Below are positions 23,726 to 42,804 of a stretch of DNA of 64,000 bases, piece by piece. A program made the position numbers and the translations under genes. The notes beneath the pieces were generated by a model, which worked only from the letters and a program-made list of their open reading frames with translations, ran no database searches and had not been told where the DNA came from. Source of the DNA: Clostridiales bacterium (GTDB lineage Bacteria; Bacillota; Clostridia; Lachnospirales; Lachnospiraceae); the NCBI GenBank assembly GCA_018366495.1, contig JAGZHZ010000003.1, positions 32,611 to 96,610 of the forward strand, written 5' to 3'. Within the stretch, counting starts at the first letter, position 1; each line of letters opens with the position of its first letter.

Positions 23726-23797
23726 AGCACGAGACGGGATTCGAACCCGCGACCCTCGCCTTGGCAAGGCGATACTCCACCACTGAGCCACTCGTGC
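23726..23797 (-). tRNA. tRNA-Gly (anticodon GCC)
   Basis: Cloverleaf: acceptor GCACGAG/CTCGTGC, anticodon loop TTGCCAA, T-loop TTCGAAT, discriminator U. Confidence 0.85.
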
Positions 23798-24663: not shown

Positions 24664-24770
24664 TTTGATCACCTTTTAATTACTTCGTAACATAATTGTA
24701 ACATGTAAACAGCAAAATTTCCAGTAAAAAACAATTTTTTTCTATTCTATTTTTTCACTTGTGAACTCCC

Positions 24771-24799
24771 CATAAGCTAAAGCAAATGGAATTTTCGCG
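24771..24799. repeat. Copy C of ~30-nt structured repeat (IS200/IS605 end-like hairpin motif)
   Basis: GTGAACTCCCCATAAGCTAAAGCAAATGG. Same orientation as copies A and B. Stem CCAT/ATGG with covarying inner pair. Confidence 0.5.
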
Positions 24800-24834
24800 A
24801 AGTAACTTTAAATTTGCGCCTCTTTTCCTCTTAT

Positions 24835-25665
24835 TTATAAAGCCAGAAGTTCTAGAACAATTCCTGCCGCCACACCGACAGTATACAAAATTCCCACTAT
24901 TTTCAAACATTCTTTTTTATCCGTATTCAGTCTGAATAAAATTGCCAGTCCTATTCCTGCTCCCACTAAAACACCGGACATCATTGCTCCAAAGCTGATC
25001 ATTCCCTCCAGATAAAGCTGTGTGATCACGACAGAAGAAGCACAGTTTGGAATCAGTCCTACAAGGCCTGCCAGAAGTTCTCCCACAACAGGACGGTTCA
25101 TTAATAACTGAGAAATCTGCTCCTCTCCGATCATACTGATTACCCCATTTAATACCAAGGAAATCAAAAAGATGAATACGACAATCTGAATTGTATGATT
25201 GACGGCGCTTAGGAAAATTCCATGTTCACAGCAATGTGTCTTTTCCTCCTGTATCCTGCTCTTTTCTCCAGCTTGTCTCTTCACAAGCAGATCCACTGCC
25301 ATGCCCGCTGCAATTCCAATAATCATTTTCAGCATCAAAACTTTCACGATAAAAGAAACGGGAGCTTTTTCTGAAATCATCACCGGAATCATTTCATCCG
25401 AAGTCGACAAATAAATTGCAATCAGCGTTCCCATTGTGATCACTCTTCCTGAATACAGTCCGGAAGCGGCAGCCGAAAATCCGCACTGTGGGAAGACTCC
25501 TAAAATTCCTCCAACAACAGGCCCCATTCTTCCGGCACGTCCGATCATCTGTTTTGCTTTTTCGCCTGTTTTGTGTTCCAAATATTCCATCAGTAAATAC
25601 GTCAAAAATAAAAACGGAATCAATTTTAATGTATCTACCGCCGTATCCAGCAGTATTTCCAACAT
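24835..25665 (-). CDS. Polytopic membrane protein with internal two-fold repeat, putative permease/metal exporter-like
   Basis: 276 aa, about 8-10 TM. Repeated motifs GVFPQCGFSAAASGLY and GLIPNCASSVVITQLY. GGAGGT RBS. Family assignment (10TM heavy-metal exporter-like) is from memory only. Confidence 0.4.
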   Translation of the reverse strand: MLEILLDTAVDTLKLIPFLFLTYLLMEYLEHKTGEKAKQMIGRAGRMGPVVGGILGVFPQCGFSAAASGLYSGRVITMGTLIAIYLSTSDEMIPVMISEKAPVSFIVKVLMLKMIIGIAAGMAVDLLVKRQAGEKSRIQEEKTHCCEHGIFLSAVNHTIQIVVFIFLISLVLNGVISMIGEEQISQLLMNRPVVGELLAGLVGLIPNCASSVVITQLYLEGMISFGAMMSGVLVGAGIGLAILFRLNTDKKECLKIVGILYTVGVAAGIVLELLAL

Positions 25666-25714
25666 ATTATTACCTCCATCTTCTTTTTCAGTCTTTCTGT
25701 TTTTTTCTTATAAG

Positions 25715-25744
25715 GTGAACTACCCATCACCTAAAGGTAATGGG
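25715..25744. repeat. Copy A of ~30-nt structured repeat; putative right-end hairpin of the IS200/IS605 remnant
   Basis: GTGAACTACCCATCACCTAAAGGTAATGGG. Nested hairpin CCCAT-ACC-TTTA-GGT-ATGGG. Lies 80 nt downstream (minus sense) of the truncated TnpB frame. Confidence 0.5.
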
Positions 25745-25825
25745 CTTCTAAAAGGTGCTTACGCACCTCTATTTAAGAAGTTTGATATTTCAGTTTCCAC
25801 CTGAATACTCAGGCAATCCTTATTC

Positions 25826-26197
25826 TTATAGGTGTGTCCACTTCGCCTCTAGCATATATAAATTGATAATCTTGCGAGCTGTCTTATTCGTATAGTCATT
25901 GACTTTGTTGCTGCGGTCTCTTGCAATTGCTTTTTGCCGATTGGCAGCTTTCTTTCCCATATGCTGTTTATCCTTTATGGATTGTAAACGTGCATTTTCT
26001 TTATTAAATCACTGATTTATGGATTTAAGCTTACGTCCGTCAATAATGAATGATTTGCCATCGCTTAACACTGCTGTTACAAAATTATTTATCCCCAAAT
26101 CAAGTGCAAGTGCATTGTTTGTGTTTAGATTTCTCTGAATGTTTTCCGCTTCATAGATATACTGAATTTCAAAGAACCTTGCTTTTTGGAACGATAT
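25826..26197 (-). pseudogene. tnpB: IS200/IS605-family TnpB (OrfB) remnant, internally stopped and C-terminally truncated
   Basis: Minus-strand translation ...RFFEIQYIYEAENIQRNLNTNNALALDLGINNFVTAVLSDGKSFIIDGRKLKSINQ*FNKENARLQSIKDKQHMGKKAANRQKAIARDRSNKVNDYTNKTARKIINL... matches the central TnpB region (GIDLG...DG, the lysine/arginine-rich RNA-binding stretch). In-frame TGA at complement 26009..26011. N-terminal and RuvC/Zn-finger parts are absent. Confidence 0.6.
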
Positions 26198-26223
26198 TTA
26201 TAAATACGCTGGCGTTCCCTGTA

Positions 26224-28110
26224 TCATTCCTGATATTTTTGAAACTCTTCATCATTGATTGCTGCCTCAAAATCTTTTTCTGAAACTTTCCATTCTTTTT
26301 TTGTGCTAAACTGCTGTCTCGTCAGAGCATTGTTCCACACTCTCTCATACAAATTCCGAACCATACGGACATTTCCAAATTTCTTATCTCTGTAAACCTT
26401 ATCTGGTATCTTTCCAAAAAATGCCTTTGCTTTTGCCTCAAATCGTTTCCCATATTCAAAGTCCTTCTGTACCATCTTCATAAAAATGGAAAACAGCTCT
26501 TCTCTTGAATAATTCGGGAAATGAACTGTATGAGGGATTCGATCTCGTAACCCCGGATTCGCCTCCAGCATATTTTCGATCTCCTCCGAATATCCTGCAA
26601 AAATCACAATCAGATTATCTCTGTGATTTTCCATCTCTGTCATCAGAGTCAATAATGCTTCTTTTCCGTAATCGTTTTTTTCTCCGTCTCCCTGATACAG
26701 CGCATACGCCTCATCAATGAATAAGACAGAGCCATATGCGTCACGGCAGACTGCCATTGTCTTTGGCGCAGTCTCGCCGACATAACGTCCGCATAGTTCC
26801 CGACCCGAAATCTCAATAAAACTTCCTTTTTTCAAAATTCCTTTCTCATAGAAAATCTTTCCTACAATCCGCGCAATACTCGTCTTTCCCGTTCCCGGAT
26901 TTCCTAAAAATTTCATATGCATACAAGGATATTCCAGTTCTTTTCCGTGTTCTTTACAGTATTTCCAGTTTTCAGCCAGCGCAATAATCTCACGGACTTT
27001 TTTCTTGACTTCTTCCAGCCCTTCCAGCTCATCCAGCATTTCTTCACCTTTTTTTTCAAACTGTCCTGCCTGCTCCGGCAGAATCTCTGCAATGTCTGTG
27101 GCATGAATGAGTTTACTGTCTTTGCCTCTCAAAAAGCAATTCTTCGCTTTTGTATAAATTACTTCATTTACGATCTTCTGAATCGTATTAAATCCGTAAA
27201 AATAGCCGTCTTTCTTTTCTTCATTGATCTTTTCATCAATTACTGTCCAGGTGTCGTCCGCCATCTCAAATCCATACAGGCAGACTTGCTCATCGAGATA
27301 TCTTTTATAGTCTTCCTGAGAAAATGGTACGATTGAAACCTGCCGCACGACCATGAGATCCATCAGTCCTTTTCTGACACGTTCCAAAATATTTCGTTCC
27401 AGAAAAGGGACACGGAACACAAAAATATAGTCATCCTGCCATTGATTGATCTGGCGGAGCAGTCGTTTAAAGCGCAGTTCTGTCACATGAGTGATCCAGT
27501 CTGAAATATCAATGGATACAATTCCCTTCTTGCTGTTCTTGATTGCATTGACACAAGCTGAAAGAGGAGCAGTATCCAAAATAGAGGTGGGCGCCTCAAT
27601 TTTCAGTTCTGTCACTCCCATCCCTTTTTCAAACAGTCCCAGCGCTTCCAGAAGACGCCACAGCAATTTTAAATAAGTGCTCAGACCGCACCCATCGTTG
27701 ACGGCAAATAAATAATTCTGGGCAAAATAGATTTTCATCAATTTCATTTTTTTAATGCGGTCTGCAATACCGACAAGTTCTTTTGTCAGTTCTTTAAATT
27801 CTGCTGCACCGCTGAGCGATTCAATTTCCTGCTGGATCTCACTTAGAGGTTCATATTTTGCAATGGAAATATGAATTTCATCTTTCTGAGGACTCATTTC
27901 AGCAATACTTTCCTCTAATGTCTGCAGGATTTCCTTTCCTTTTTCCTCTGTCTCCAGCAGAATCTTACAACATTTCTGATCAATCTCCAGCTTTTGAATT
28001 TCTCCAAATTCGTCTAGTTTTTCTTTGATTTCTGCATGTGGAAGAATCCCTTCTTTTTTCGCACGTTCCAGAAATTTTTTGCGAAATGAAACCTCTATTC
28101 TAATTAACAT
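26224..28110 (-). CDS. AAA+ ATPase, SpoVK/CbbX family, tandem architecture with degenerate N-terminal AAA module
   Basis: C-terminal module has Walker A GNPGTGKT, Walker B VLFIDEAY and the CbbX/SpoVK-type ENHRDNLIVIFAGY region. The N-terminal ~330 aa repeats the fold with a degenerate P-loop (NDGCGLST). Confidence 0.7.
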   Translation of the reverse strand: MLIRIEVSFRKKFLERAKKEGILPHAEIKEKLDEFGEIQKLEIDQKCCKILLETEEKGKEILQTLEESIAEMSPQKDEIHISIAKYEPLSEIQQEIESLSGAAEFKELTKELVGIADRIKKMKLMKIYFAQNYLFAVNDGCGLSTYLKLLWRLLEALGLFEKGMGVTELKIEAPTSILDTAPLSACVNAIKNSKKGIVSIDISDWITHVTELRFKRLLRQINQWQDDYIFVFRVPFLERNILERVRKGLMDLMVVRQVSIVPFSQEDYKRYLDEQVCLYGFEMADDTWTVIDEKINEEKKDGYFYGFNTIQKIVNEVIYTKAKNCFLRGKDSKLIHATDIAEILPEQAGQFEKKGEEMLDELEGLEEVKKKVREIIALAENWKYCKEHGKELEYPCMHMKFLGNPGTGKTSIARIVGKIFYEKGILKKGSFIEISGRELCGRYVGETAPKTMAVCRDAYGSVLFIDEAYALYQGDGEKNDYGKEALLTLMTEMENHRDNLIVIFAGYSEEIENMLEANPGLRDRIPHTVHFPNYSREELFSIFMKMVQKDFEYGKRFEAKAKAFFGKIPDKVYRDKKFGNVRMVRNLYERVWNNALTRQQFSTKKEWKVSEKDFEAAINDEEFQKYQE

Positions 28111-28137
28111 GACTTTTTTTCTTTCTCCCCTGTTAAA

Positions 28138-28422
28138 TCATCTGTATGTTACCTGATCCCAAAGTGCCTTTTTTTCTTTATATTTTTCATTCAGCCAGGA
28201 AACGGCCTCTTCTATTCCCTGCGCAGAAAATGGAAACTGTTCTGTTTCCATTTCCTCCTCCGTCTGGTCATACGATTTTGGTCCTTTCCAGATCTGAGCT
28301 TGGATTTGATCTTTCTGTTCCGCATTGATTTTGCTCAGACGGTAACGCATTCCGCAATAGCTGCCTTTAAAGTCGGACTTTTTTAAAAAAGGAATCGAAA
28401 TCCATCCTTTTAAACTAATCAT
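28138..28422 (-). CDS. Hypothetical 94-aa cytoplasmic protein, translationally coupled to upstream hydrolase gene
   Basis: ATGATTAG overlap with the hydrolase stop. Ends 27 nt before the AAA ATPase start. No recognisable domain. Confidence 0.4.
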   Translation of the reverse strand: MISLKGWISIPFLKKSDFKGSYCGMRYRLSKINAEQKDQIQAQIWKGPKSYDQTEEEMETEQFPFSAQGIEEAVSWLNEKYKEKKALWDQVTYR

Positions 28423-29782
28423 TTTTTCTCTCTTCTTTCATAAATTCTGCAATTTCATCTGTCACTTGAGGCGATACATGCTGGATATTCTGGTAGTCTT
28501 TTGATCCATTCTCTTTCTTTCCTTCCATAAACAGATGTGTTAAACCAGGAAAAGATACAAACTTTGCATTGCTTTTTTCAGAAAAAATTTCTTTCCATGA
28601 TTCAAACTCTCTCATGGTCACTTGATAATCTTCCTCCCCTTGCAGGATCAGACACGGTTCTTCTATCTTTTTTGCCTCCTCCTCTATATTATACTGCTCC
28701 AGATTCTTCCAATATGGCACATATGCTCCCATAATCAGCTCATTATCTTTATATTTTTCAAGATGATCCAGTTTTTTCAATTCTGCATCAATCATCTTCT
28801 TTTGCTCTTTGACTGCATCAGAAGGACTTGCTTCCAGCCCAAACAAAAAATTATACTGTTCTTTCATAAGATCCGCCAGTCCCTGCACCGGAGCCGCGAG
28901 CAAAATATATCCTGCCGCTTCCCCCTCTTTCAGCTCTTTGTCAATCATAGGGACTACGTATCCTCCAAGGCTGTGACCTGCCACAAAAATCTCTTCCGGA
29001 TTAATTTCCTGTGTCTCCTTCAGCATCCTCACTGCATTCACTGCATCGTCGACGGTCTCTTCTTTTACTGTCAGCCCTATGTCCATTGCCGCTTCTTTTT
29101 GATATACATACGTCCGTTTATCATACCGGTAAGAAGCAATTCCCTTTTCTGCCAGCCCCTCAGCCAGATCTTTAAATGGTTTATTTCCATTTATTGTTTC
29201 ATCCCGATCCGACGGCCCTGATCCGTGTACAAAGACTACAACTGGAAATGGCCCTTCTCCATCTGGAAGAATCAATGTCCCCGGAAGTTCTTTTCCTTCC
29301 CCGATAGAGATGCTGATTTCTTTTTCTGTATATTCTTTTCTCTCTTCCGTATCCGGTTCCTGATACACAGCCGTCAAAATGCCTGCAATTTTTCCATCCT
29401 GAAAAGAAATCTGCAAATTTAAATTCTGCACTTCAAACTGACATGGCACACAGACCGTTTTGTACCCATACTGTTCAATGACAAATGGGGTTTTTACTTC
29501 TTTCAGTCCTTTCAGCATTCCCATCAGGCTTTCATAGCTCTTCTGGAGACTGCCGTCCTTAACCATGACCTCCATTTCCTCTGTATAAGAGAACTTTGTC
29601 ATCAGATCATCATACGCTTTTTCTCCCAGCAGCGTCACATATTCCAATGCCGTCTCTTCTTCTGTGTGCTGCATCATTTTACTTGTCTCTTCTTTTGTAT
29701 TTTCCCCGGCATATCCCACCGATGTTATACCAAAAGCCGCAATGATTGCTGCGCTGATCCATACCATGCCTTTTCTTCTCAT
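28415..29782 (-). CDS. Secreted alpha/beta-fold hydrolase (S9/dienelactone hydrolase-like)
   Basis: Signal peptide MRRKGMVWISAAIIAAFGITSVGYA and nucleophile elbow GHSLGG. ATG at 29780..29782 with AGGAGGGG RBS (the ORF-track TTG at 29800 is upstream). Confidence 0.65.
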   Translation of the reverse strand: MRRKGMVWISAAIIAAFGITSVGYAGENTKEETSKMMQHTEEETALEYVTLLGEKAYDDLMTKFSYTEEMEVMVKDGSLQKSYESLMGMLKGLKEVKTPFVIEQYGYKTVCVPCQFEVQNLNLQISFQDGKIAGILTAVYQEPDTEERKEYTEKEISISIGEGKELPGTLILPDGEGPFPVVVFVHGSGPSDRDETINGNKPFKDLAEGLAEKGIASYRYDKRTYVYQKEAAMDIGLTVKEETVDDAVNAVRMLKETQEINPEEIFVAGHSLGGYVVPMIDKELKEGEAAGYILLAAPVQGLADLMKEQYNFLFGLEASPSDAVKEQKKMIDAELKKLDHLEKYKDNELIMGAYVPYWKNLEQYNIEEEAKKIEEPCLILQGEEDYQVTMREFESWKEIFSEKSNAKFVSFPGLTHLFMEGKKENGSKDYQNIQHVSPQVTDEIAEFMKEERKND

Positions 29783-29859
29783 ATTTTCCCCTCCTGCCAA
29801 ACATTTTTTCTATCTTGTTTTATTTTTTATATCCTGTTTCCAAGTTTTATCTATTTTCC

Positions 29860-30582
29860 TCATCCCTGAAACGGCTTTGTAAAATATCCTGACTGGGAAA
29901 CAGGTTCTTTTCCTTCGTACAAATGTCTTGTATCTCCCAAGACCTGACATCGGAAATACGCTTCCCCTTTCTTCATCTCCTCTGATCCGAGAACAGTGAC
30001 AGACGTCGGCGCCACAAAAAATCCATGCCACAGTACAGCGGGAGAAATTCCCATAAGATGTCCCATGATGGCAAGCATCACTCCGAGATGGCAGAAAAAG
30101 ACAATATTCTTTTCCTGATCATCTTCCTCTGGATTTCTTCGCAAATAATATCCTCCATGTCTCTCATACCCATATTTCAGTAAAAGCTGATCGATTCCAC
30201 TGCAAATCTTATCATACGCTTCTTTTACAGGCGCTGTCTTCATAAGCGGCGCTTCCGTCCATCTGTCCTTGTCATAATACGCTTCTTCTTTTGTCCAATA
30301 AGAAGGCTTCATATCCCACGGCACTTTCATTCTCCCCAGATCTTCCCGAAAAACCTTGACAGGAAATTCCTGCAGCCAGTCAAAAACTTCCGCTTTTCTT
30401 CCTGATTTTTCTAAAAAACAAGATGCCGTTGCCTTTGCTCTTCCAAGCGGAGAGCAATAAATATCTGATATATCCCATAACGCCGCACGTTCTGCTAACA
30501 GTGCCGCTTCTTTCCATCCTTTTTCTGTCAGAGAATCTTTCTCATAGTCTGGATCTCCGTGACGGATAAAAATCAATCTCAT
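29860..30582 (-). CDS. Histidine phosphatase family protein (phosphoglycerate mutase-like)
   Basis: N-terminal LIFIRHGDP catalytic RHG motif. 240 aa. Confidence 0.7.
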   Translation of the reverse strand: MRLIFIRHGDPDYEKDSLTEKGWKEAALLAERAALWDISDIYCSPLGRAKATASCFLEKSGRKAEVFDWLQEFPVKVFREDLGRMKVPWDMKPSYWTKEEAYYDKDRWTEAPLMKTAPVKEAYDKICSGIDQLLLKYGYERHGGYYLRRNPEEDDQEKNIVFFCHLGVMLAIMGHLMGISPAVLWHGFFVAPTSVTVLGSEEMKKGEAYFRCQVLGDTRHLYEGKEPVSQSGYFTKPFQG

Positions 30583-30596
30583 TTTTCTCTCCCCTT

Positions 30597-31526
30597 TTAC
30601 TGTATCTGCTCAAATTTTACTTTTTGATATAGCTTCATAACCATCATCTGATCTGCCGGTCTTGTTCCCTGTGTTGTCACTGCCGCCGCAGAAACAGCCA
30701 TTGCAAGGCGGATTCCAGCCTCAAAGCTGATTCCTTCTTCCCAGCTGCTGACTAATGCTCCTACCATTCCGTCACCGGCGCCCACAGTTGAAACGATTGG
30801 TACTTTTAATCCCGGACATCTCACACAAAAATTCTGGCTGAGAAAAACAGCGCCTTCAGCTCCCAATGAGATAGCTACAAATCCCACTCCTTCATCCAGC
30901 AGCTGCAATCCCAAAATCGCTGCTTCTTTTGCATCCGATATCTTTTTGCCACACAGAGTCTCAAGTTCTTTTTGATTTACTTTCAGAAAGTCTGGTTTTG
31001 CTTTCAGTCCCCTTTTCAGGAGCATTCTGTCGGCATCCAAAAATACCTTCGCCCCTTTTTGATGAACCATCTTGATTGCCAGTTCGTAAAATTCATCTGA
31101 CACGCCGTCTGGTACGCTTCCAGAAAAAACAAACATCGTATCTTCTGCGGCATACTGATACAGCTTTTGAAGCAAATCATTCAGTTCTTCCTCAGAGATA
31201 TGCGGTCCTAATTCGTTCAGTTCTGTTACACTTCCGTCTGTCTCTGCCACTTTTGTATTGATGCGATTGTTTCCTTCAATCCTCACAAAATCCGTATGTA
31301 TTCCTTGTTCCTGCAGAACGCGTTCAATCATTCTGCCGCTTTTTCCTCCGATCAGACCAGTAGCAATGCTTTTCAGACCTAACGTGTGGATGGTCTTAGA
31401 GACATTAATCCCTTTTCCTCCTACATCTGTCTTTTTGCTCAAAATTCGATTTAATCCGCCTTTTTCTAAATGATCCAGCCAAACAGTGCGGTCCACCGCC
31501 GGATTCATTGTCACTGTAACGATCAT
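30597..31526 (-). CDS. PfkB-family sugar kinase, 1-phosphofructokinase/tagatose-6-phosphate kinase-like
   Basis: MIVTVTMNPAVDRT N-terminus and GAGDGMVGAL ATP-binding motif. The start could be 31535 instead. Confidence 0.7.
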   Translation of the reverse strand: MIVTVTMNPAVDRTVWLDHLEKGGLNRILSKKTDVGGKGINVSKTIHTLGLKSIATGLIGGKSGRMIERVLQEQGIHTDFVRIEGNNRINTKVAETDGSVTELNELGPHISEEELNDLLQKLYQYAAEDTMFVFSGSVPDGVSDEFYELAIKMVHQKGAKVFLDADRMLLKRGLKAKPDFLKVNQKELETLCGKKISDAKEAAILGLQLLDEGVGFVAISLGAEGAVFLSQNFCVRCPGLKVPIVSTVGAGDGMVGALVSSWEEGISFEAGIRLAMAVSAAAVTTQGTRPADQMMVMKLYQKVKFEQIQ

Positions 31527-31597
31527 ACGCTCCACCTACTCCTATCCAGATCTTTTCTCTTAAGTATTTTTTATAGTCTATCACACGACTCTCATTT

Positions 31598-31626
31598 TCT
31601 CAATACTTTGGGGGAAAATGAAATCA
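31598..31626. terminator. GC-rich hairpin plus T6 run in fruK/azlD intergenic region
   Basis: GAGGGTGC-TGCAGGAA-GCACCCCC followed by TTTTTT on the plus strand. It is oriented against the flanking minus-strand genes, so its function is uncertain. Confidence 0.3.
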
Positions 31627-31654
31627 GAGGGTGCTGCAGGAAGCACCCCCTTTT

Positions 31655-31966
31655 TTATAGTCCAATCAGCTGCGCCGCAAACACTGCCGCACTTGCTCCG
31701 ATGGCTACTGTCAGCAGACCTTTTCCAAAATATGCCAGCGCCACTGCCGCAGCACATCCAATAGCTGCGCTCGCTGTACTCCCTGTACTTTCAAAGATTG
31801 CCGGAAATGTCATCGCTGAAAGTACAGCATACGGCACATAATTTAAAAAAGATTTTATAAATGGATTCTCAATTTTTTTTCTGAAGATGACCATCGGCAG
31901 CACTCGGATCAGATATGTTGTCCCTGCCATAATTGCTATGCTGCATAAAATTTTTCCTGTATTCAT
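31655..31966 (-). CDS. azlD: Branched-chain amino acid exporter small subunit AzlD
   Basis: 104-aa 3-TM protein MNTGKILCSIAIMAGTTYLIRVLP. ATG at 31964..31966 overlaps the azlC stop by 4 nt. Confidence 0.7.
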   Translation of the reverse strand: MNTGKILCSIAIMAGTTYLIRVLPMVIFRKKIENPFIKSFLNYVPYAVLSAMTFPAIFESTGSTASAAIGCAAAVALAYFGKGLLTVAIGASAAVFAAQLIGL

Positions 31967-32676
31967 GATTCTTCTCCCTCTTCTTCCTTCACTGGAAATA
32001 GCAGCGCTACTGCAATGCTGACTATGACAGTGATGACGATAATGCTCCATCCCCCTTTTAGGAAGGAAAAAACTGAAAAGCATGAAATCAGACCGCTCAT
32101 CGCAGCTGCAAGCACAACCGTAAATAATACTGCTTTACTCTTTCTGGAAGGAGGAACAATAATTGCAATAAACATTCCATATAGCGCAATTCCAAGTGCA
32201 TTTGTCAGGTTTTGCGGCATCAAAGATGTGATTGCCCCTCCACACAGCGTTCCAAGCGTCCATCCCAACACCGGCGTACAGATCAATCCTGCCATATAGG
32301 CTGCACTCAGTGCTTTTGGATACTGCATTCCCACAGCAAAAATTTCATCTGTAATTCCAAAGGAAACTGCGCATCGCTGCCTCATTGTCATTTTCTCTTC
32401 TACTTTCTGAGAAATAGAAAGCGACATTAAAAAATACCGGATGTTAATAATCAATGTAGTCATCACCAGCTCCACTGCACTGCCTCCGTCAATCATCAGA
32501 TTTAATCCGGCAAACTGCCCTGCACTCGTCACATTTGTCAAGGAAATCAAAACGGCCGCCCAAAGCGGAAGCCCTTGAATCACCGCCGTCATTCCAAATG
32601 CAAACGAAACGGAAAAATATCCAAGGCAAATCGGGATTCCATGGCGAATCCCCTGCATAAACTCTCCCTTTTTCAT
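31963..32676 (-). CDS. azlC: Branched-chain amino acid exporter AzlC family
   Basis: AzlC-family polytopic protein. ATG at 32674..32676 with GGAGAG RBS. Confidence 0.7.
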   Translation of the reverse strand: MKKGEFMQGIRHGIPICLGYFSVSFAFGMTAVIQGLPLWAAVLISLTNVTSAGQFAGLNLMIDGGSAVELVMTTLIINIRYFLMSLSISQKVEEKMTMRQRCAVSFGITDEIFAVGMQYPKALSAAYMAGLICTPVLGWTLGTLCGGAITSLMPQNLTNALGIALYGMFIAIIVPPSRKSKAVLFTVVLAAAMSGLISCFSVFSFLKGGWSIIVITVIVSIAVALLFPVKEEEGEES

Positions 32677-33006
32677 CTCTCCTGTAACTCTTTTCTGTCT
32701 TATTTTTTCTCTCTCATCTGCTGAATATGGCATAATGAAAGAACAATAATTCAGAAATATCCTGCACTGAACTTCCATATGCCGAACCAGAATATGGTGC
32801 TTATGATATCACAAAGGATATTTTTTTTCAACTCCATATCGTTTTTCTGAAAACCATTTGTCTGCCCTTTCCAATTTAATTTTCCCTGGAAACAGCTGCG
32901 CAGTGCAAATCTACAAATACTTTAAAAAATGGGTGACTTTACAAAGATATTGTGATAAAATAATCAAAGTTTGAAAATTTTACAACAGTGAAAGGGGCAA
33001 CTGATT

Positions 33007-33306
33007 ATGGGTATACTTATGATCATGTGTATCGGGATTCTTGCAGGCCGTTTCCTTGTATCTCCTCGTCTGAAAAAAGGCAACGAATATGTTTCTATCC
33101 TGTGTACTTTTATTTTAATCTTTGCCATGGGCGTCATGCTTGGCAAAAAAGAGAATTTTCTTGAAGAATTATCTTCTTTAGGTCTTTCCAGTTTTTTATT
33201 CTTTCTGATTCCGGCAGGTTGTTCGATCGGAGCTGTCTATTTTCTGACAAAACATTTTATGAAGAATGATGAATCCGAATCCTGCGGAAAGGAGCTGGAA
33301 GAATGA
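33007..33306 (+). CDS. LysO/YbjE-family (DUF340) exporter, N-terminal half-protein
   Basis: 99-aa 3-TM protein. Firmicutes-type split DUF340 pair, with a 4-nt overlap with the second gene. Confidence 0.55.
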   Translation: MGILMIMCIGILAGRFLVSPRLKKGNEYVSILCTFILIFAMGVMLGKKENFLEELSSLGLSSFLFFLIPAGCSIGAVYFLTKHFMKNDESESCGKELEE

Positions 33307-33905
33307 TCGTTATTCTTATGATTGTGTCTCTCGTCTTAGGGCTTGCCTGCGGACTTTCCGATATTGAAAATGTTCTGATCTCCGCCATCAGTCAAAATAC
33401 TGATCTCGTATTATATATTCTCATGTTCTCTGTCGGCATCAGTATCGGAATGCAAAAAGGCATCGTGAAAAAAATTCGAGAATATCATTTTAAAATTTTT
33501 ATCATTCCTCTTGGAATCATTCTGGGATCGCTTTTGGGCGGTCTGATTTGTTCCGCTTTGCTTGGAATACCGACCGGATATGCTACAGCCATCACAAGCG
33601 GAATGGGCTGGTACAGCCTTGCCGGTGCAACCATCAGTAAACTGGCAGATGCAGAGCTTGGAAGCATTGCTTTTATGAGCAATCTGATGAGAGAAATCTT
33701 TTCATTTTTCGTTATTCCCTTCCTGGCGCTTCATCTGAATCAATATACTTGTATCGCCATCGCTGGTGCGACAAGTGAAGATACAACGCTCCCTGTCATT
33801 TTAAAATATACAAATGAGGAAACCGTCGTGCTGTCCGTTTTTAATGGCATGATCTGTTCCTTTTTTGTTCCAATTCTTATTTCTTTCTGTCTCAATATGG
33901 TATAG
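33303..33905 (+). CDS. LysO/YbjE-family (DUF340) exporter, C-terminal half-protein
   Basis: 200 aa, 6 TM, DUF340-like. Confidence 0.55.
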   Translation: MIVILMIVSLVLGLACGLSDIENVLISAISQNTDLVLYILMFSVGISIGMQKGIVKKIREYHFKIFIIPLGIILGSLLGGLICSALLGIPTGYATAITSGMGWYSLAGATISKLADAELGSIAFMSNLMREIFSFFVIPFLALHLNQYTCIAIAGATSEDTTLPVILKYTNEETVVLSVFNGMICSFFVPILISFCLNMV

Positions 33906-33947
33906 GGAACAAAAACAAATGGTAAAAGAAATTCAGAATTTAAATCA

Positions 33948-33971
33948 CCGCAGGAAATAAATTTCCTGCGG
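33948..33971 (+). terminator. Intrinsic terminator after lysO-like pair
   Basis: CCGCAGGAAAT-AA-ATTTCCTGCGG hairpin followed by CTTTTTCTT. Confidence 0.6.
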
Positions 33972-33990
33972 CTTTTTCTTACGCTCTTTT

Positions 33991-34020
33991 GTGAACTACC
34001 CATCACCTAAAGATAGTGGG
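33991..34020. repeat. Copy B of ~30-nt structured repeat
   Basis: GTGAACTACCCATCACCTAAAGATAGTGGG. 27/30 identical to copy A. Lies between the lysO terminator and the metA stop. Confidence 0.5.
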
Positions 34021-34061
34021 TTTTCTGGCTAAAAATTTATAAGGATGGAGATCCTTTATGA

Positions 34062-34982
34062 TTAAAATGATTTTTTATTCAAAGAATACGGTGTGATCTG
34101 ATAAACGTAATAATTGAGCCAGTTTGTATACAGGTTATTTGCATGTGCTCTCCACATCAGCATCGGACGGGCGTCTGAATTATTTTCTGGATAGTAATTT
34201 TTCGGCTGCTCAATCGGCAGTCCTTTTCCCATATCTCTTTTATACTCGCCGTCCAATGTTACCCTGTCATACTCCGGATGACCCATCACAAAAATCTGGC
34301 GTCCGTCCTTCGTCATGGCAAGAAATACACCCGCCTCTTCTGATTCTGCCAGAATAATCAAATCTTCACACGCTGCTATTTCCTCTCTCGGTGATTCTGT
34401 ATGCCGGGAATGTGGCGCTAAAAACATATCATCAAACCCACGAACTAATGGATACTTTCTGTTTTCCACCTTATGCCAAAACAGACCAAACATTTTTTTC
34501 TCAAGCGGTCTTTTCTGAATTCCAAAATGATAGTAAAGACCTGCCTGTGCCGCCCAGCAAAGATACATCGTGGAAGTTACATTTTTTTTGCTCCAATCCA
34601 TGATCTGCGTCAGCTCTTCCCAGTAGTCCACCTCTTCAAACGGCATCTGCTCTACCGGAGCGCCGGTGATAATGAGTCCGTCAAACTCCTGATCCTTGAT
34701 ATCATTAAACGTGACATAAAATTTATTTAAATGGCTCGTTGACGTGTTCTTTGATTCATGAGAACAGACATGAAGAAAAGTGACATCGACCTGAAGCGGT
34801 GTATTGGACAGAGAACGCAGAAGCTGAAGCTCGGTTTCTTCTTTTAAGGGCATCAGGTTCAAAATTACAATCTGAATGGGACGGATATCCTGATGGCTCG
34901 CTCTTGTCTCATCCATCACAAAAATATTTTCATCTTCCAGAATCTGCCTTGCTGGAAGATCTGCCTGTATTTTAATTGGCAT
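34062..34982 (-). CDS. metA: Homoserine O-acyltransferase (MetA family)
   Basis: [12 protein letters not shown]-terminus and MetA-family similarity. ATG at 34980..34982 with AAGAGG RBS (the ORF-track start at 35234 has no RBS). Confidence 0.8.
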
Positions 34983-35034
34983 ATGAAAAACCTCTTTTCT
35001 CTTATTTTCTATCATACATAGATACTGTTTGTCT

Positions 35035-35043
35035 ATTATATCA
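35035..35043 (-). promoter_or_regulatory. Extended -10 element (TGaTATAAT) of putative metA promoter
   Basis: Located about 50 nt upstream of the metA ATG. An 11-bp inverted repeat with 27-bp spacer (35045..35093) lies immediately upstream, over the -35 region. Confidence 0.4.
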
Positions 35044-35140
35044 CAGGCGGACATCCCGTGAAAAGAATAAATTCTTAACACAGATGTCCGCCTGAAAAAG
35101 ACAATTTTTCTGAATTTATCAATACTTTCTATTCCAGCAA

Positions 35141-36742
35141 TCACATCAGCGGAGCGAACAGGCGCAGCACTCTTCCTGTAATAATATTCATGATTCCCTG
35201 TTTTCTGACATCCCCCGGCATTACTTTCTGACATTTCTTTAACGTCTCCTGGAAATCTTTCTCGATATTCGGAATCTCTTTGTTTCTATACATCATCGCT
35301 GCACATTCAAAATGCAGATAAAAGCTGCGATAATCCAGATTGATTGTTCCCACAACAGCTTTGCAGTCATCTGATACAAATACCTTTGCGTGTACAAATC
35401 CAGGCGTATATTCATAGATCTGAACTCCCGCCTCCAGTAATTCCTCATAATACGTCTTTGCAAGAATAAACGCATACTTTTTATCTGGTATATGCGGCAT
35501 GATAATGATGACTTCTACTCCACGCTTTGCCGCATAGGTAAGTGCATGAAGCATCTCATAATCCAGAATCAGATATGGCGTCATGATATGTACATATTTC
35601 TTTGCATTAAAAAGAATGTCTATGTACACTTGCTCTCCTAAAATCTCATCGTCAAGCGGCATATCGCTGTACGGAATGACATATCCATCTCCCTGTTCCG
35701 GTGTGCGCCGTACGGGAACATCGACATACTTTGCAAAGTTTTCTGTGACAATACGTTTGTCTGTGTTCCACATCTTTAAGAACATCATTGTAAAACTGCG
35801 CACCGCTTCACCTTCCAGCATAATTGCCGTATCCTTCCAATGTCCGAATCGTTCTTTCTGGTTAATATATTCATCCGCCAGATTAATTCCTCCTGTAAAT
35901 GCCACCTGTCCATCAATCACTAAGATTTTTCTGTGATCTCTGTTATTCTGTATTGTAGACAGAACGGGCCGAACTGGCGAAAACATTTTACACTGAATTC
36001 CCTTTGCCTGAATTTCTTCCGGATAATGATAAGGCAAAAGCGCCAGACAACACATTCCGTCATACATAAATCGGACTTCTACTCCCTCTTTTACCTTCTC
36101 TTCCAGAATTGCCAGAATACTCTCCCACATATATCCTTTTGCCACGATAAAATATTCCATGAAAATAAAGGACTTCGCTTTTCTCAGCTGAATCTTCATC
36201 TCTTCAAATTTTTCTTCACCGGAAGCAAAATATTTCACCGATGTGTTTTGATATGTCGGAAATCCCATTTTTCCAAGATAATGGGATAAATTTGCCTGTT
36301 CCAGACTTTCTTCTTCCAGCCTGACCATAACGGCAGGCTTTTGCTGGCTCAGACTGCGATTTTCCCAGTCCATCTTTTCCTGTCTTCTGCGCAGAATTTT
36401 CGGTTCCTGCTGAATGGCACAAAAAAGATACAAAAGTGTTCCAAAAATTGGAATTGACAGCATAGGAACGATCCAGGCAAGCATAAATGCTGGATTTTCT
36501 CTTTTATTAATAATAAAAATAACAAGGCATACCGTCAGAAGTGTGACTCCTCCGTAGACATAAATTAATTTTTCCTCCAGCAGCTGAACTCCGGCAAATA
36601 GAATTCCAATCTGAATCAGCAAGAGAAGAACTACTACCGCCGTTCTTCCGAAAACCACGCTGAACAGACCCTTTTTTCCTTTTTCTACTGTCTTTTTTGT
36701 AAGTTCTGTTGTTTTCTTTGAAAACTCAAAATTATTACTCAT
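35141..36742 (-). CDS. cls: Cardiolipin synthase
   Basis: Two N-terminal TM helices and two HKD motifs ([10 protein letters not shown]..., HAKVFVSDD...). Confidence 0.85.
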
Positions 36743-42731: not shown

Positions 42732-42804
42732 CACACCCGGAGGGATTCGAACCCCCGACACGTGGTACCGGAAACCACTGCTCTATCCCCTGAGCTACGA
42801 GTGC
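42732..42804 (-). tRNA. tRNA-Arg (anticodon CCG)
   Basis: Cloverleaf: D-arm GCTC/GAGC, anticodon stem GTGGT/ACCAC with loop TTCCGGT, T-loop TTCGAAT. Two G-U pairs in the acceptor stem. Confidence 0.75.

What the first reader, a model, noticed from the sequence alone, without database searches (positions are those of the whole stretch)
24771..34020. Three direct copies of a ~30-nt structured repeat (GTGAACTMCCCAT...ATGGG) with stem covariation; two flank the permease gene
Copies at 24771..24799, 25715..25744 and 33991..34020 share GTGAACT(A/C)CCCAT, a TAAAG-containing loop and ATGG(G). Copies A and B are 27/30 identical. Copy C keeps the outer stem (CCAT/ATGG) while the inner pair changes from ACC/GGT to GC/GC. 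This favours selection on RNA or ssDNA secondary structure, as expected for IS200/IS605 subterminal hairpins or their miniature derivatives.

Read on the minus strand, all three end ...AGTTCAC and the sequences diverge immediately afterwards, consistent with an element boundary. Copies A and C are direct repeats bracketing the single permease gene 24835..25665. Copy B sits between the lysO terminator and the metA stop.
Basis: seen in the sequence. Interest (0 to 1): 0.55.

Follow-up and report, generated by a model that had tools for sequence, protein, structure and literature searches.

The report
Dead ends of IS200/IS605 transposons
The three repeats are the leftover right-hand tips (a small hairpin plus the cleavage motif TTCAC) of decayed IS200/IS605-family transposons, the kind that carry the RNA-guided nucleases TnpB or IscB; this is an ordinary kind of genomic debris, not a new RNA element.

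Summary
The repeat is real: three copies in 64 kb, all on the minus strand (0 expected by chance; covariance-model E 1e-11 to 5e-6).

The motif (hairpin + TAGTTCAC, read on the minus strand) is the right end of IS200/IS605-family elements. Across at least 119 public loci it ends elements that carry an IS200-type tnpA plus tnpB, tnpB alone, or iscB. They sit beside TTTAT and end in TTCAC, the same two motifs as the tested Geobacillus element ISGst2.

- **Copy B (25715-26199)** is a 485-bp wreck: two tnpB fragments with an in-frame stop, no left end, but an intact guide-RNA scaffold and right end.
- **Copy C (33991-34038)** is a 48-bp single-hairpin scar: left-end start, one hairpin, right-end tail.
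- **Copy A (24761-24836)** is a 76-bp relic; only its last ~36 nt are recognisable.

A sister species has empty sites for A and B, each exactly after TTTAT. Related phage contigs show a 1.6-kb element and 48-bp scars at one site, so scars arise in place by left-end × right-end hairpin collapse.

This is a known kind of element; interest is low.

The parts
24761..24836 (-). Copy A: a 76-bp relic present in this species only. Only its last ~36 nt (24761-24796) are recognisable as the right-end hairpin plus tail. The hairpin lies at about 24769-24790 and has two internal mismatches. The element ends GAGTTCAC, with TTCAC at 24761-24765.
   Evidence: CM hit 31.7 bits, E 4.6e-6. The block is absent from sister-species contigs L268 and L271, whose sequence is collinear with the joined window flanks. 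The left 48 nt show no significant similarity to left ends or right-end upstream regions (p>0.25). The fold is no better than shuffles.
24837..24841 (-). TTTAT immediately 5' of copy A, in the position of the transposon-adjacent motif (TAM). Its last T is the first base of the permease stop codon TAA (24837-24835).
   Evidence: Sequence, empty-site alignment, and TTTAT as the ISGst2 TAM in Meers et al..
25715..26199 (-). Copy B: a 485-bp decayed tnpB-only element of the IS200/IS605 family. The left end and tnpB codons 1 to ~162 are missing, and so are codons ~281-402. The right end is intact.
   Evidence: The insertion is absent from L268 and L271; the joined flanks align end to end with the empty site. 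tblastn with full-length 416-437-aa TnpBs from related elements.
25862..26197 (-). tnpB pseudogene fragment 1, covering residues ~163/174-280 of a ~422-aa TnpB and including the ...ALDLGINNF... RuvC-I region. It has an in-frame TGA at 26011-26009.
   Evidence: tblastn 81-85% identity, E 1e-50 to 1e-52. Pfam OrfB_IS605 E 1.9e-22, 80 bits against a cut-off of 30.5. 77 homologues, nearly all carrying PF01385. Sequence.
25809..25871 (-). tnpB pseudogene fragment 2: the last ~20 codons (...ARGEVDTPIRIRIA) plus the stop codon. It overlaps the start of the guide-RNA scaffold.
   Evidence: tblastn to the last 16-20 residues of the full-length TnpBs. Alignment with other right ends.
25715..25847 (-). 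Right end, which is also the predicted 3' guide-RNA (omega-RNA) scaffold. It has 133 nt and six predicted helices. The terminal hairpin is at 25723-25744 (CCCATTACC-TTTA-GGTGATGGG), followed by TAGTTCAC, with TTCAC at 25715-25719.
   Evidence: Alignment A3 and consensus fold. Pair counts: 97.4% of cells paired, 13 pairs with compensatory change, 0/500 shuffles as good; all 7 pairs of the terminal hairpin covary. CM hit 53 bits. Hairpin z -2.4.
26200..26204 (-). TTTAT immediately 5' of the copy B insertion (TAM position).
   Evidence: Sequence and empty-site alignment.
33991..34038 (-). Copy C: a 48-bp single-hairpin scar. It consists of the left-end start (AAATTTTTAGCCAGAAAA), one hairpin at 33999-34020 (CCCACTATC-TTTA-GGTGATGGG, with a C·A mismatch) and the right-end tail TAGTTCAC (TTCAC at 33991-33995).
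   Evidence: CM hit 49.6 bits. The left part matches the left ends of full-length elements. Nine other loci have the same 48-bp architecture. The left-end-type C at arm position 5 occurs in 8/22 scars against 0/65 true right ends.
34039..34043 (-). CTTAT at the TAM position of copy C, one base different from TTTAT.
   Evidence: Sequence.

Best explanation
All three repeats are the right-end tips of dead IS200/IS605-family insertion sequences, of the lineage whose target motif is TTTAT and whose last five bases are TTCAC (as in Geobacillus ISGst2). The functional strand is the window's minus strand.

**Role in a live element (established knowledge).** The hairpin has two jobs. As single-stranded DNA it is bound by the TnpA Y1 transposase, which cuts right after TTCAC. 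As RNA it is the last stem of the omega-RNA scaffold used by the element's TnpB or IscB nuclease, whose guide is the flanking sequence just after TTCAC.

**State in this window (shown).**
- B is a 485-bp wreck: a tnpB pseudogene with two large deletions and a stop codon, no left end, but an intact omega-RNA/right end.
- C is a 48-bp scar in which the left-end start is fused through a single chimeric hairpin to the right-end tail.
- A is a 76-bp relic with only the right tip recognisable.
- A and B are insertions directly after TTTAT.

**Inferred.** Scars like C arise in place, by recombination or replication slippage between the near-identical left-end and right-end hairpins of one element. 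All three copies lack a left end, a second hairpin or a nuclease gene, so they are most likely inert. They are fixed in all eight other contigs of this species that were inspected.
For: **Identity**
- 119+ loci carry the motif. 14 lie less than 60 nt from a contig end, as expected for a multicopy element.
- In L022 the motif ends 108 nt after a 367-aa TnpB (Pfam). IS200-type tnpA lies upstream in seven loci (Y1_Tnp E 1.6e-37).
- Full-length tnpB-only relatives of copy B carry the same right end.
- Left ends carry a matching hairpin about 18 nt after TTTAT. Meers et al. report TAM TTTAT and TEM TTCAC for ISGst2.

**Window B**: PF01385 hit; tblastn E 1e-50.

**Insertions**: the sister-species empty sites for A and B are collinear with the joined flanks, with no target duplication.

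**Structure**: all 7 pairs of the terminal hairpin covary; 0/500 shuffles do as well. G·U wobbles lie on this strand only.

**Orientation**: GC skew of the + strand is about -0.2 throughout, so the minus strand has the leading-strand sequence. This matches the known orientation bias of the family.

**Scar origin**
- L239 (1602-bp element) and L250, L236 and L245 (48-bp scars) share the same left flank. L239 and L250 also share the right flank.
- The L250 hairpin is left-end type and the L245 hairpin is right-end type, so there were at least two independent collapses.
- Chimeric arms occur in 8/22 scars against 0/65 right ends, p = 5e-6.
Against: - No empty or full-length allele was found for copy C itself, so its in-place origin rests on analogy.
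- The left 48 nt of A cannot be assigned, and the A boundary rests on an alignment with small indels.
- Inertness is inferred, not tested. B's omega-RNA scaffold is intact and lies 49 nt upstream of the permease start codon. The rest of the genome was not available to check for live TnpA or TnpB.
- The loci used for the chimera test are not phylogenetically independent.
- The mechanism of collapse (slippage versus recombination) is not resolved.
Confidence: 0.92

Rival explanations
1. The 48-bp single-hairpin units (C, perhaps A) are a mobile miniature element in their own right. On this view they are a minimal PATE with TTTAT-side and TTCAC-side cleavage sites around one hairpin, spread in trans by a TnpA encoded elsewhere.
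For: The units keep both junction motifs and recur with the same architecture at different loci in many genomes, sometimes several per genome: three in MAG S27M_St_13 (L028, L033, L073) and two in this 64-kb window. Some pairs among them differ by compensatory stem changes, for example TTACC/GGTGA against TTGCC/GGCGA.
Against: - Full-length and scar alleles occupy the same site.
- Crossover points vary and chimeric arms carry mismatches.
- The hairpins of A and C are no more stable than shuffles.
- Meers et al. found excision was lost when either end was scrambled, and TnpA needs two hairpins (established knowledge of IS608).
- The copies are fixed in the species, with no polymorphism among eight contigs.
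Confidence: 0.08
2. The relics have been taken over by the host. B's intact omega-RNA could be loaded in trans by a TnpB or TnpB-derived repressor encoded elsewhere. Alternatively, the hairpins could act as RNA stabilisers or attenuators for the neighbouring permease, nitroreductase or metA transcripts.
For: B keeps every predicted helix of the scaffold although tnpB is destroyed, and it lies 49 nt before the permease start codon. The copies are fixed in the species. PATE-borne omega-RNAs acting in trans are discussed by Meers et al.. Free-standing IS605 stem-loops kept next to genes are reported in Borrelia.
Against: - The sister species has the same genes and spacers without A or B.
- No terminator or promoter signal was found at any copy.
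- The A and C stems are degraded.
- No TnpB or TnpA gene lies in the window.
- There are no expression data.
Confidence: 0.07
3. The motif belongs to something else: group II intron domain VI (which also ends ...CAC), a REP/RAYT repeat, an integron attC site, or an undescribed riboswitch or terminator.
For: On first sight the 3' end resembles the ...CTACTTCAC end of Ll.LtrB (from memory), and the motif contains GTAG. Copy B lies in a 5' leader.
Against: - No Rfam family reaches threshold at any copy or in eight related loci, including the group II intron and riboswitch models.
- The adjacent genes are tnpA, tnpB or iscB, not a reverse transcriptase or a RAYT.
- The scan finds no terminator at the copies.
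Confidence: 0.01

Closest known systems
ISGst2 and related ISGst1-5 elements of Geobacillus stearothermophilus (IS200/IS605 family; Meers et al. 2023, bioRxiv 10.1101/2023.03.14.532601)
   Same: The adjacent motif is TTTAT and the element ends in TTCAC. Both ends carry subterminal hairpins on one strand. A shared end family carries either TnpB or IscB cargo, and gene-less derivatives exist. The copy B tnpB fragment has G. stearothermophilus homologues at 68-69% identity.
   Different: The window copies are dead relics in an uncultured gut Clostridiales/Eubacteriales bacterium. Nothing here has been tested biochemically.
PATEs (palindrome-associated transposable elements): gene-less IS200/IS605 derivatives
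   Same: They are short non-coding derivatives that keep the transposon ends. L025 and L115 are of this type, with left end + omega-RNA + right end and no ORF.
   Different: A PATE keeps both hairpins. Scars such as copy C keep only one chimeric hairpin, and copy B has lost its left end, so neither meets the two-end requirement.
Free-standing IS605 stem-loops in Borrelia plasmids (Delihas 2009, PMC2775950)
   Same: These are IS605-specific stem-loops found without the transposase gene or adjacent flank, some of them next to genes.
   Different: They come from a different IS605 lineage and host. That paper does not describe left-end/right-end fusion at one hairpin or orthologous full and collapsed alleles, as far as its abstract shows.
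TnpB omega-RNA (reRNA), as in ISDra2
   Same: It is a 3' scaffold that starts inside the tnpB 3' codons and ends at the transposon right end, with the guide read from the flank.
   Different: Only predicted here. Rfam's IS605-orfB RNA models do not match. The helix closing GUGGAC with GUUCAC rests on a single compensatory change.

Membership tests
IS200/IS605 family insertion sequence | Subterminal imperfect palindromes at both ends, on the same strand, rather than terminal inverted repeats | tested here: met
   Met for full-length relatives: the left-end and right-end hairpins are direct, near-identical copies. In the window only one hairpin per copy survives.
IS200/IS605 family insertion sequence | Y1 (HUH) transposase TnpA of the IS200 type | tested here: met
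   tnpA lies upstream of tnpB in L104, L049, L067, L032, L117, L102 and L030. Pfam Y1_Tnp E 1.6e-37. None is present in the window.
IS200/IS605 family insertion sequence | Accessory RNA-guided nuclease gene (tnpB or iscB) | tested here: met
   TnpB domain sets in L022 and L144. An IscB-like ORF in L239 was recognised by motif reading only, not by Pfam. The window has only a tnpB pseudogene.
IS200/IS605 family insertion sequence | Insertion 3' of a specific penta-nucleotide, with no target-site duplication | tested here: met
   A and B lie directly after TTTAT. The joined flanks are collinear with the sister-species empty sites. TTTAT sits at a fixed distance before the left ends.
IS200/IS605 family insertion sequence | Active strand on the lagging-strand template (orientation bias with replication) | tested here: met
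   All three copies are on the minus strand, which is the G-rich (leading-sequence) strand; + strand skew is about -0.2. With only three copies this is consistent rather than decisive.
IS200/IS605 family insertion sequence | Excision and insertion catalysed by TnpA on single-stranded DNA | not testable with these tools
   Needs an excision assay.
ISGst2-like lineage (TAM TTTAT / TEM TTCAC) | Flanked by TTTAT and ending in TTCAC | tested here: met
   Window A and B: TTTAT and TTCAC. Window C: CTTAT and TTCAC. Motifs as reported.
PATE (gene-less but mobilisable derivative) | Both a left-end and a right-end hairpin retained | tested here: not met
   The CM finds one hairpin per copy. B lacks the left end. 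The left part of A is unrecognisable.
Group II intron (domain V/VI) | Match to the Rfam group II intron models, and a reverse-transcriptase ORF | tested here: not met
   No Rfam hit in the window or in eight related loci. The neighbouring ORFs are TnpA and TnpB.
Intrinsic terminator / riboswitch | GC-rich stem followed by a U tract, or a match to a known aptamer | tested here: not met
   No terminator is called at the copies, and there is no Rfam match.

The most novel reading that the evidence does not exclude
Collapse between the left-end and right-end hairpins may be a common, recurrent way for IS200/IS605 elements to die. It leaves a 48-bp single-hairpin scar. The scar keeps 48 bp between TTTAT and the old flank, so the site no longer looks like the 'donor joint' that the element's own TnpB or IscB guide RNA cuts. 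Such scars would then be a route by which host genomes lose these elements without triggering the nuclease-driven retention described by Meers et al. Recurrence is supported here: about 20% of sampled motif copies are scars, with at least two independent crossovers at one site. The escape-from-nuclease idea is pure inference.
Probability: 0.25. Interest if true: 0.45.

Novelty: new member of a known kind. Interest (0 to 1): 0.2.

Why it matters
For annotating this window it matters little. Three intergenic oddities are explained as transposon debris, and the 558-bp 'empty' spacer upstream of the permease is a tnpB pseudogene with its omega-RNA.

More generally, the 36-nt model (hairpin + TAGTTCAC) is a handy marker for the right ends of a widespread gut-bacterial and phage IS200/IS605 lineage, and for the contig breaks it causes.

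The 48-bp single-hairpin scars, seen here with orthologous full-length alleles, are a simple and recognisable end-state of these elements. Repeat finders and RNA-motif screens will keep flagging them as 'structured RNAs'.

Tried and rejected
- **Group II intron domain VI.** This was my first guess from the ...CAC end. I rejected it: there are no Rfam hits and the neighbouring ORFs are TnpB and TnpA.
- **Lysine riboswitch or leader for the permease.** No Rfam support.
- **A decayed left end at 26150-26199 in copy B.** I first read it that way. This was wrong: the stretch is tnpB coding sequence (tblastn starts at 26197/26182). The TTTAT at 26204-26200 is nevertheless the true insertion junction.
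- **Empty site for copy C.** An exact-pattern scan of metagenome contigs for the predicted joint gave 0 hits. LysO relatives at 78% identity or less do not keep the lysO-metA arrangement, so they are uninformative. Contigs with the identical LysO or permease all carry the copies.
- **Relatives of copy A.** A viral scan gave 0 hits. Local alignment of its left 48 nt to left ends and right-end upstream regions was no better than shuffles.
- **Terminator or promoter function.** Nothing was found at the copies.
- **Intact TnpA or TnpB in the window.** None at E<1 apart from the copy B pseudogene.


Full report

Yes, with corrections. Read on the + strand, GTGAACT(A/C)CCCAT...CTAAAG... occurs at 24761, 25715 and 33991. 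The 22-nt degenerate motif has 3 matches against 0.00 expected in shuffles.

I built a 36-position covariance model from 36 diverse family members. Run over the whole window without filters, it finds exactly these three, all on the minus strand (53, 49.6 and 31.7 bits). Nothing else scores better than E about 2.

Copies 25715 and 33991 are the near-identical pair, and 24761 is the divergent one. Copies 24761 and 25715 flank the ArsP_2-type permease (24835-25665, minus strand). Copy 33991 lies between the lysO terminator and the metA stop.

**2. What the motif is**

Most are Lachnospiraceae or other Clostridia MAGs, with some Bacteroidota, Chloroflexota, Saccharibacteria and a proteobacterium. 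Many hits lie 12-150 nt from a contig end, always with the element extending to the same side. This is the signature of a multicopy mobile element that breaks assemblies.

- On the strand that reads ...hairpin-TAGTTCAC, flanks diverge immediately after CAC in every locus.
- In L022 the motif ends 108 nt after the stop of a 367-aa ORF with HTH_OrfB_IS605, OrfB_IS605 and Cas12f1-like_TNB domains, that is, TnpB.
- tblastn finds this TnpB next to the motif in about 25 loci.
- In seven full-length copies an IS200-type transposase gene lies directly upstream (Y1_Tnp E 1.6e-37).
- The left ends of these copies carry a hairpin nearly identical to the right-end hairpin, in direct orientation.
- No Rfam family matches the motif in the window or in eight related loci. 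This removes my first idea (group II intron domain VI) and any known riboswitch.

**3. Copy B**

Copy B shares about 150 nt with a second group of loci. A scan of viral contigs, using a pattern about 100 nt upstream of the hairpin, returned 23 loci. Many hold full-length tnpB-only elements (416-437-aa TnpB). These end ...VDTP(I/V)RIR(I/V)A*, then about 95 nt, then hairpin-TAGTTCAC.

Their left ends read TTTAT|AA....CAGCCAGAAAA-CCCAC...CTTTAG...GTGGG-ATGAATGGCG.

Against these proteins, window 26182-25862 (26197 for two of the queries) matches residues ~174-280 at 81-85% identity (E 1e-50 to 1e-52). Window 25871-25812 matches the last 16-20 residues. The translated fragment hits Pfam OrfB_IS605 (E 1.9e-22) and has an in-frame TGA.

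So B is a tnpB pseudogene that lacks its left end, its first ~162 codons and codons ~281-402. It retains the complete 3' non-coding module.

**4. Structure**

I aligned 24 right ends chosen by the upstream pattern, so the hairpin was not constrained by the search.

- RNAalifold predicts six helices.
- 97.4% of cells pair and 13 pairs show compensatory change. No shuffle in 500 reaches the observed values, and slid controls fall to 31-58% paired.
- All 7 pairs of the terminal hairpin covary.
- Wobble pairs (U·G) occur on this strand and would be A·C mismatches on the other. This confirms that the minus strand is the functional one.
- A closing helix between GUGGAC (in the last tnpB codons) and the terminal GUUCAC is predicted but nearly invariant, with only one compensatory case.

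Within the window itself only B's hairpin is stable (z -2.4). A and C fold no better than shuffles.

**5. Link to a tested system**

Meers et al. (bioRxiv 10.1101/2023.03.14.532601) show the following for Geobacillus ISGst2:

- TnpA and TnpB both recognise the transposon-adjacent motif TTTAT.
- The transposon-encoded motif at the right boundary is TTCAC.
- The hairpins are subterminal palindromes on the top strand.
- One family of ends carries TnpB or IscB cargo, and gene-less PATEs exist.

The elements here have the same two motifs. The copy B fragment has G. stearothermophilus homologues at 68-69% identity. One viral relative, L239, carries an IscB-like ORF between the same ends (PLMP, RuvC and HNH motifs read by eye).

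**6. Empty sites**

Every other contig of this species that I inspected (eight loci) carries the copy or copies in its region. The closest other permeases (86-87% identity) lie on contigs L268-L271, which keep the AAA-ATPase / permease / nitroreductase order. Their spacers are 73 and 96 nt, against 558 and 162 nt in the window.

- **B site.** Joining the window flanks (...GCGTATTTAT + CTTATAAG...) gives a sequence that aligns end to end with L268, with only 1-nt indels. The 485 bp at 26199-25715 are therefore an insertion directly after TTTAT, without target duplication.
- **A site.** The window-specific block is 76 bp (24836-24761), again directly after TTTAT. That TTTAT overlaps the permease stop codon.

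The permease is thus not cargo bracketed by the repeats. It was there first.

**7. What copies A and C are**

Copy C reads CTTAT|AAATTTTTAGCCAGAAAA-CCCACTATC TTTA GGTGATGGG-TAGTTCAC. That is the first 18 nt of a left end, one hairpin and the right-end tail, 48 bp in all. Nine other loci have the same architecture. Twelve more have the equivalent fusion for the tnpA+tnpB family.

An independent viral scan, seeded on the left-end side, gave 24 true left ends and 6 such scars.

Decisive case:

- L239 has a 1602-bp element. L250, L236 and L245 have 48-bp scars behind the same 75-nt left flank and TTTAT. L239 and L250 also share the right flank.
- The L250 hairpin is the left-end version and the L245 hairpin is the right-end version, so the crossover happened at different points at least twice.
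- Consistently, the left-end-type C at arm position 5 (which mismatches the right-end-type A) is found in 8 of 22 scars but in 0 of 65 true right ends (Fisher p 5e-6). Copy C has it.

Scars therefore arise in place, by deletion between the two hairpins.

Copy A's last 36 nt fit the right-end model, but its left 48 nt match nothing. I call it a relic of undetermined internal structure.

**8. Other consistency checks**

- The + strand GC skew is about -0.2 across the whole window, so the minus strand has the leading-strand sequence. All three copies have their active strand there, as expected for this family. Three copies are too few to be decisive.
- No intact tnpA or tnpB lies in the window.
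- No promoter or terminator prediction coincides with a copy.
- The organism is an uncultured gut Clostridiales/Eubacteriales bacterium.

**9. Mechanism and verdict**

The following are shown:

- The identity of the motif.
- The pseudogene in copy B.
- The insertion junctions for A and B.
- Family-level covariation.
- Full-length and scar alleles at one site.

The following are inferred:

- C itself collapsed in place.
- The copies are now inert.
- Collapse occurs by slippage or recombination.

Free-standing IS605 stem-loops have been reported before (Delihas 2009), as have PATEs. This is therefore a new member of a known kind.

The only mildly new angle is the single-hairpin left-end × right-end scar as a recurrent end-state, and the untested idea that it escapes the element's own guide-RNA nuclease.

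Noticed in passing
L239:6166-7494 (minus strand of the locus); element spans about L239:6116-7717: An element with the same left-end and right-end hairpins, TTTAT and TTCAC carries a 442-aa ORF on the opposite strand instead of TnpB. The ORF has PLMP, GVDTGS (RuvC) and HNH-like motifs, so it looks like IscB. One end family therefore carries both nuclease types, as in Geobacillus.
   Followed up: partly
L095:62-99 and L118:4125-4162: Perfect 38-nt palindromes, GTGAACTACCCATTG(T/G)CTTTAGACAATGGGTAGTTCAC. The right-end tail is present in inverted form on both sides of one hairpin. Their origin is unknown.
   Followed up: no
Alignment A3 columns 7-12 with 136-141; window 25836-25841 with 25715-25720: A predicted long-range helix pairs GUGGAC, inside the last tnpB codons, with the terminal GUUCAC, closing the whole omega-RNA scaffold. 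It is almost invariant. One sequence (L145) has a compensatory C-G, so it is suggestive only.
   Followed up: partly
L025:about 1215-1700 and L115: An ORF-less derivative of roughly 450-500 bp with a left end, a conserved non-coding stretch that includes a TTGACA-type promoter-like site, the omega-RNA and the right end. This is a true PATE of the copy B lineage, shared between two genomes.
   Followed up: partly
window 24835-24841: The permease stop codon TAA is split by the copy A junction. Its T is the last base of TTTAT and its AA are the first two bases of the inserted block. The reconstructed pre-insertion sequence also reads TAA, so the insertion did not change the protein.
   Followed up: yes
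L146 (same species, another sample), lysO-metA spacer: There is a single-base polymorphism in the copy C hairpin: + strand CCCATTACC against CCCATCACC in the window. It turns a T·G wobble into T-A on the element strand. The scar is otherwise identical.
   Followed up: no
for example L020, L029, L031, L035, L085, L090, L111, L113: At least 14 of the 119 genome loci have the motif less than 60 nt from a contig end. This IS family is a frequent cause of assembly breaks in gut MAGs.
   Followed up: no
window 23726-23797 and 42732-42804 (minus strand): Two tRNA genes (Rfam 67 and 55.5 bits). The first lies about 100 nt downstream of the nitroreductase gene.
   Followed up: no
window 34062-35234 (minus strand): The mechanical metA ORF is 390 aa, but gene callers in identical contigs give 339 aa and the HTS domain starts at residue 86. 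The true start is probably internal, and the long ORF overlaps the upstream PLD-like gene (35141-36742).
   Followed up: no
window 26199-26150 (minus strand): The deletion that removed copy B's left end starts within about 2-17 nt of the TTTAT junction. A breakpoint this close to the TnpA cleavage site could be chance, or an aberrant TnpA excision using an internal pseudo-right end. Meers et al. report use of alternative TTCAC sites.
   Followed up: no
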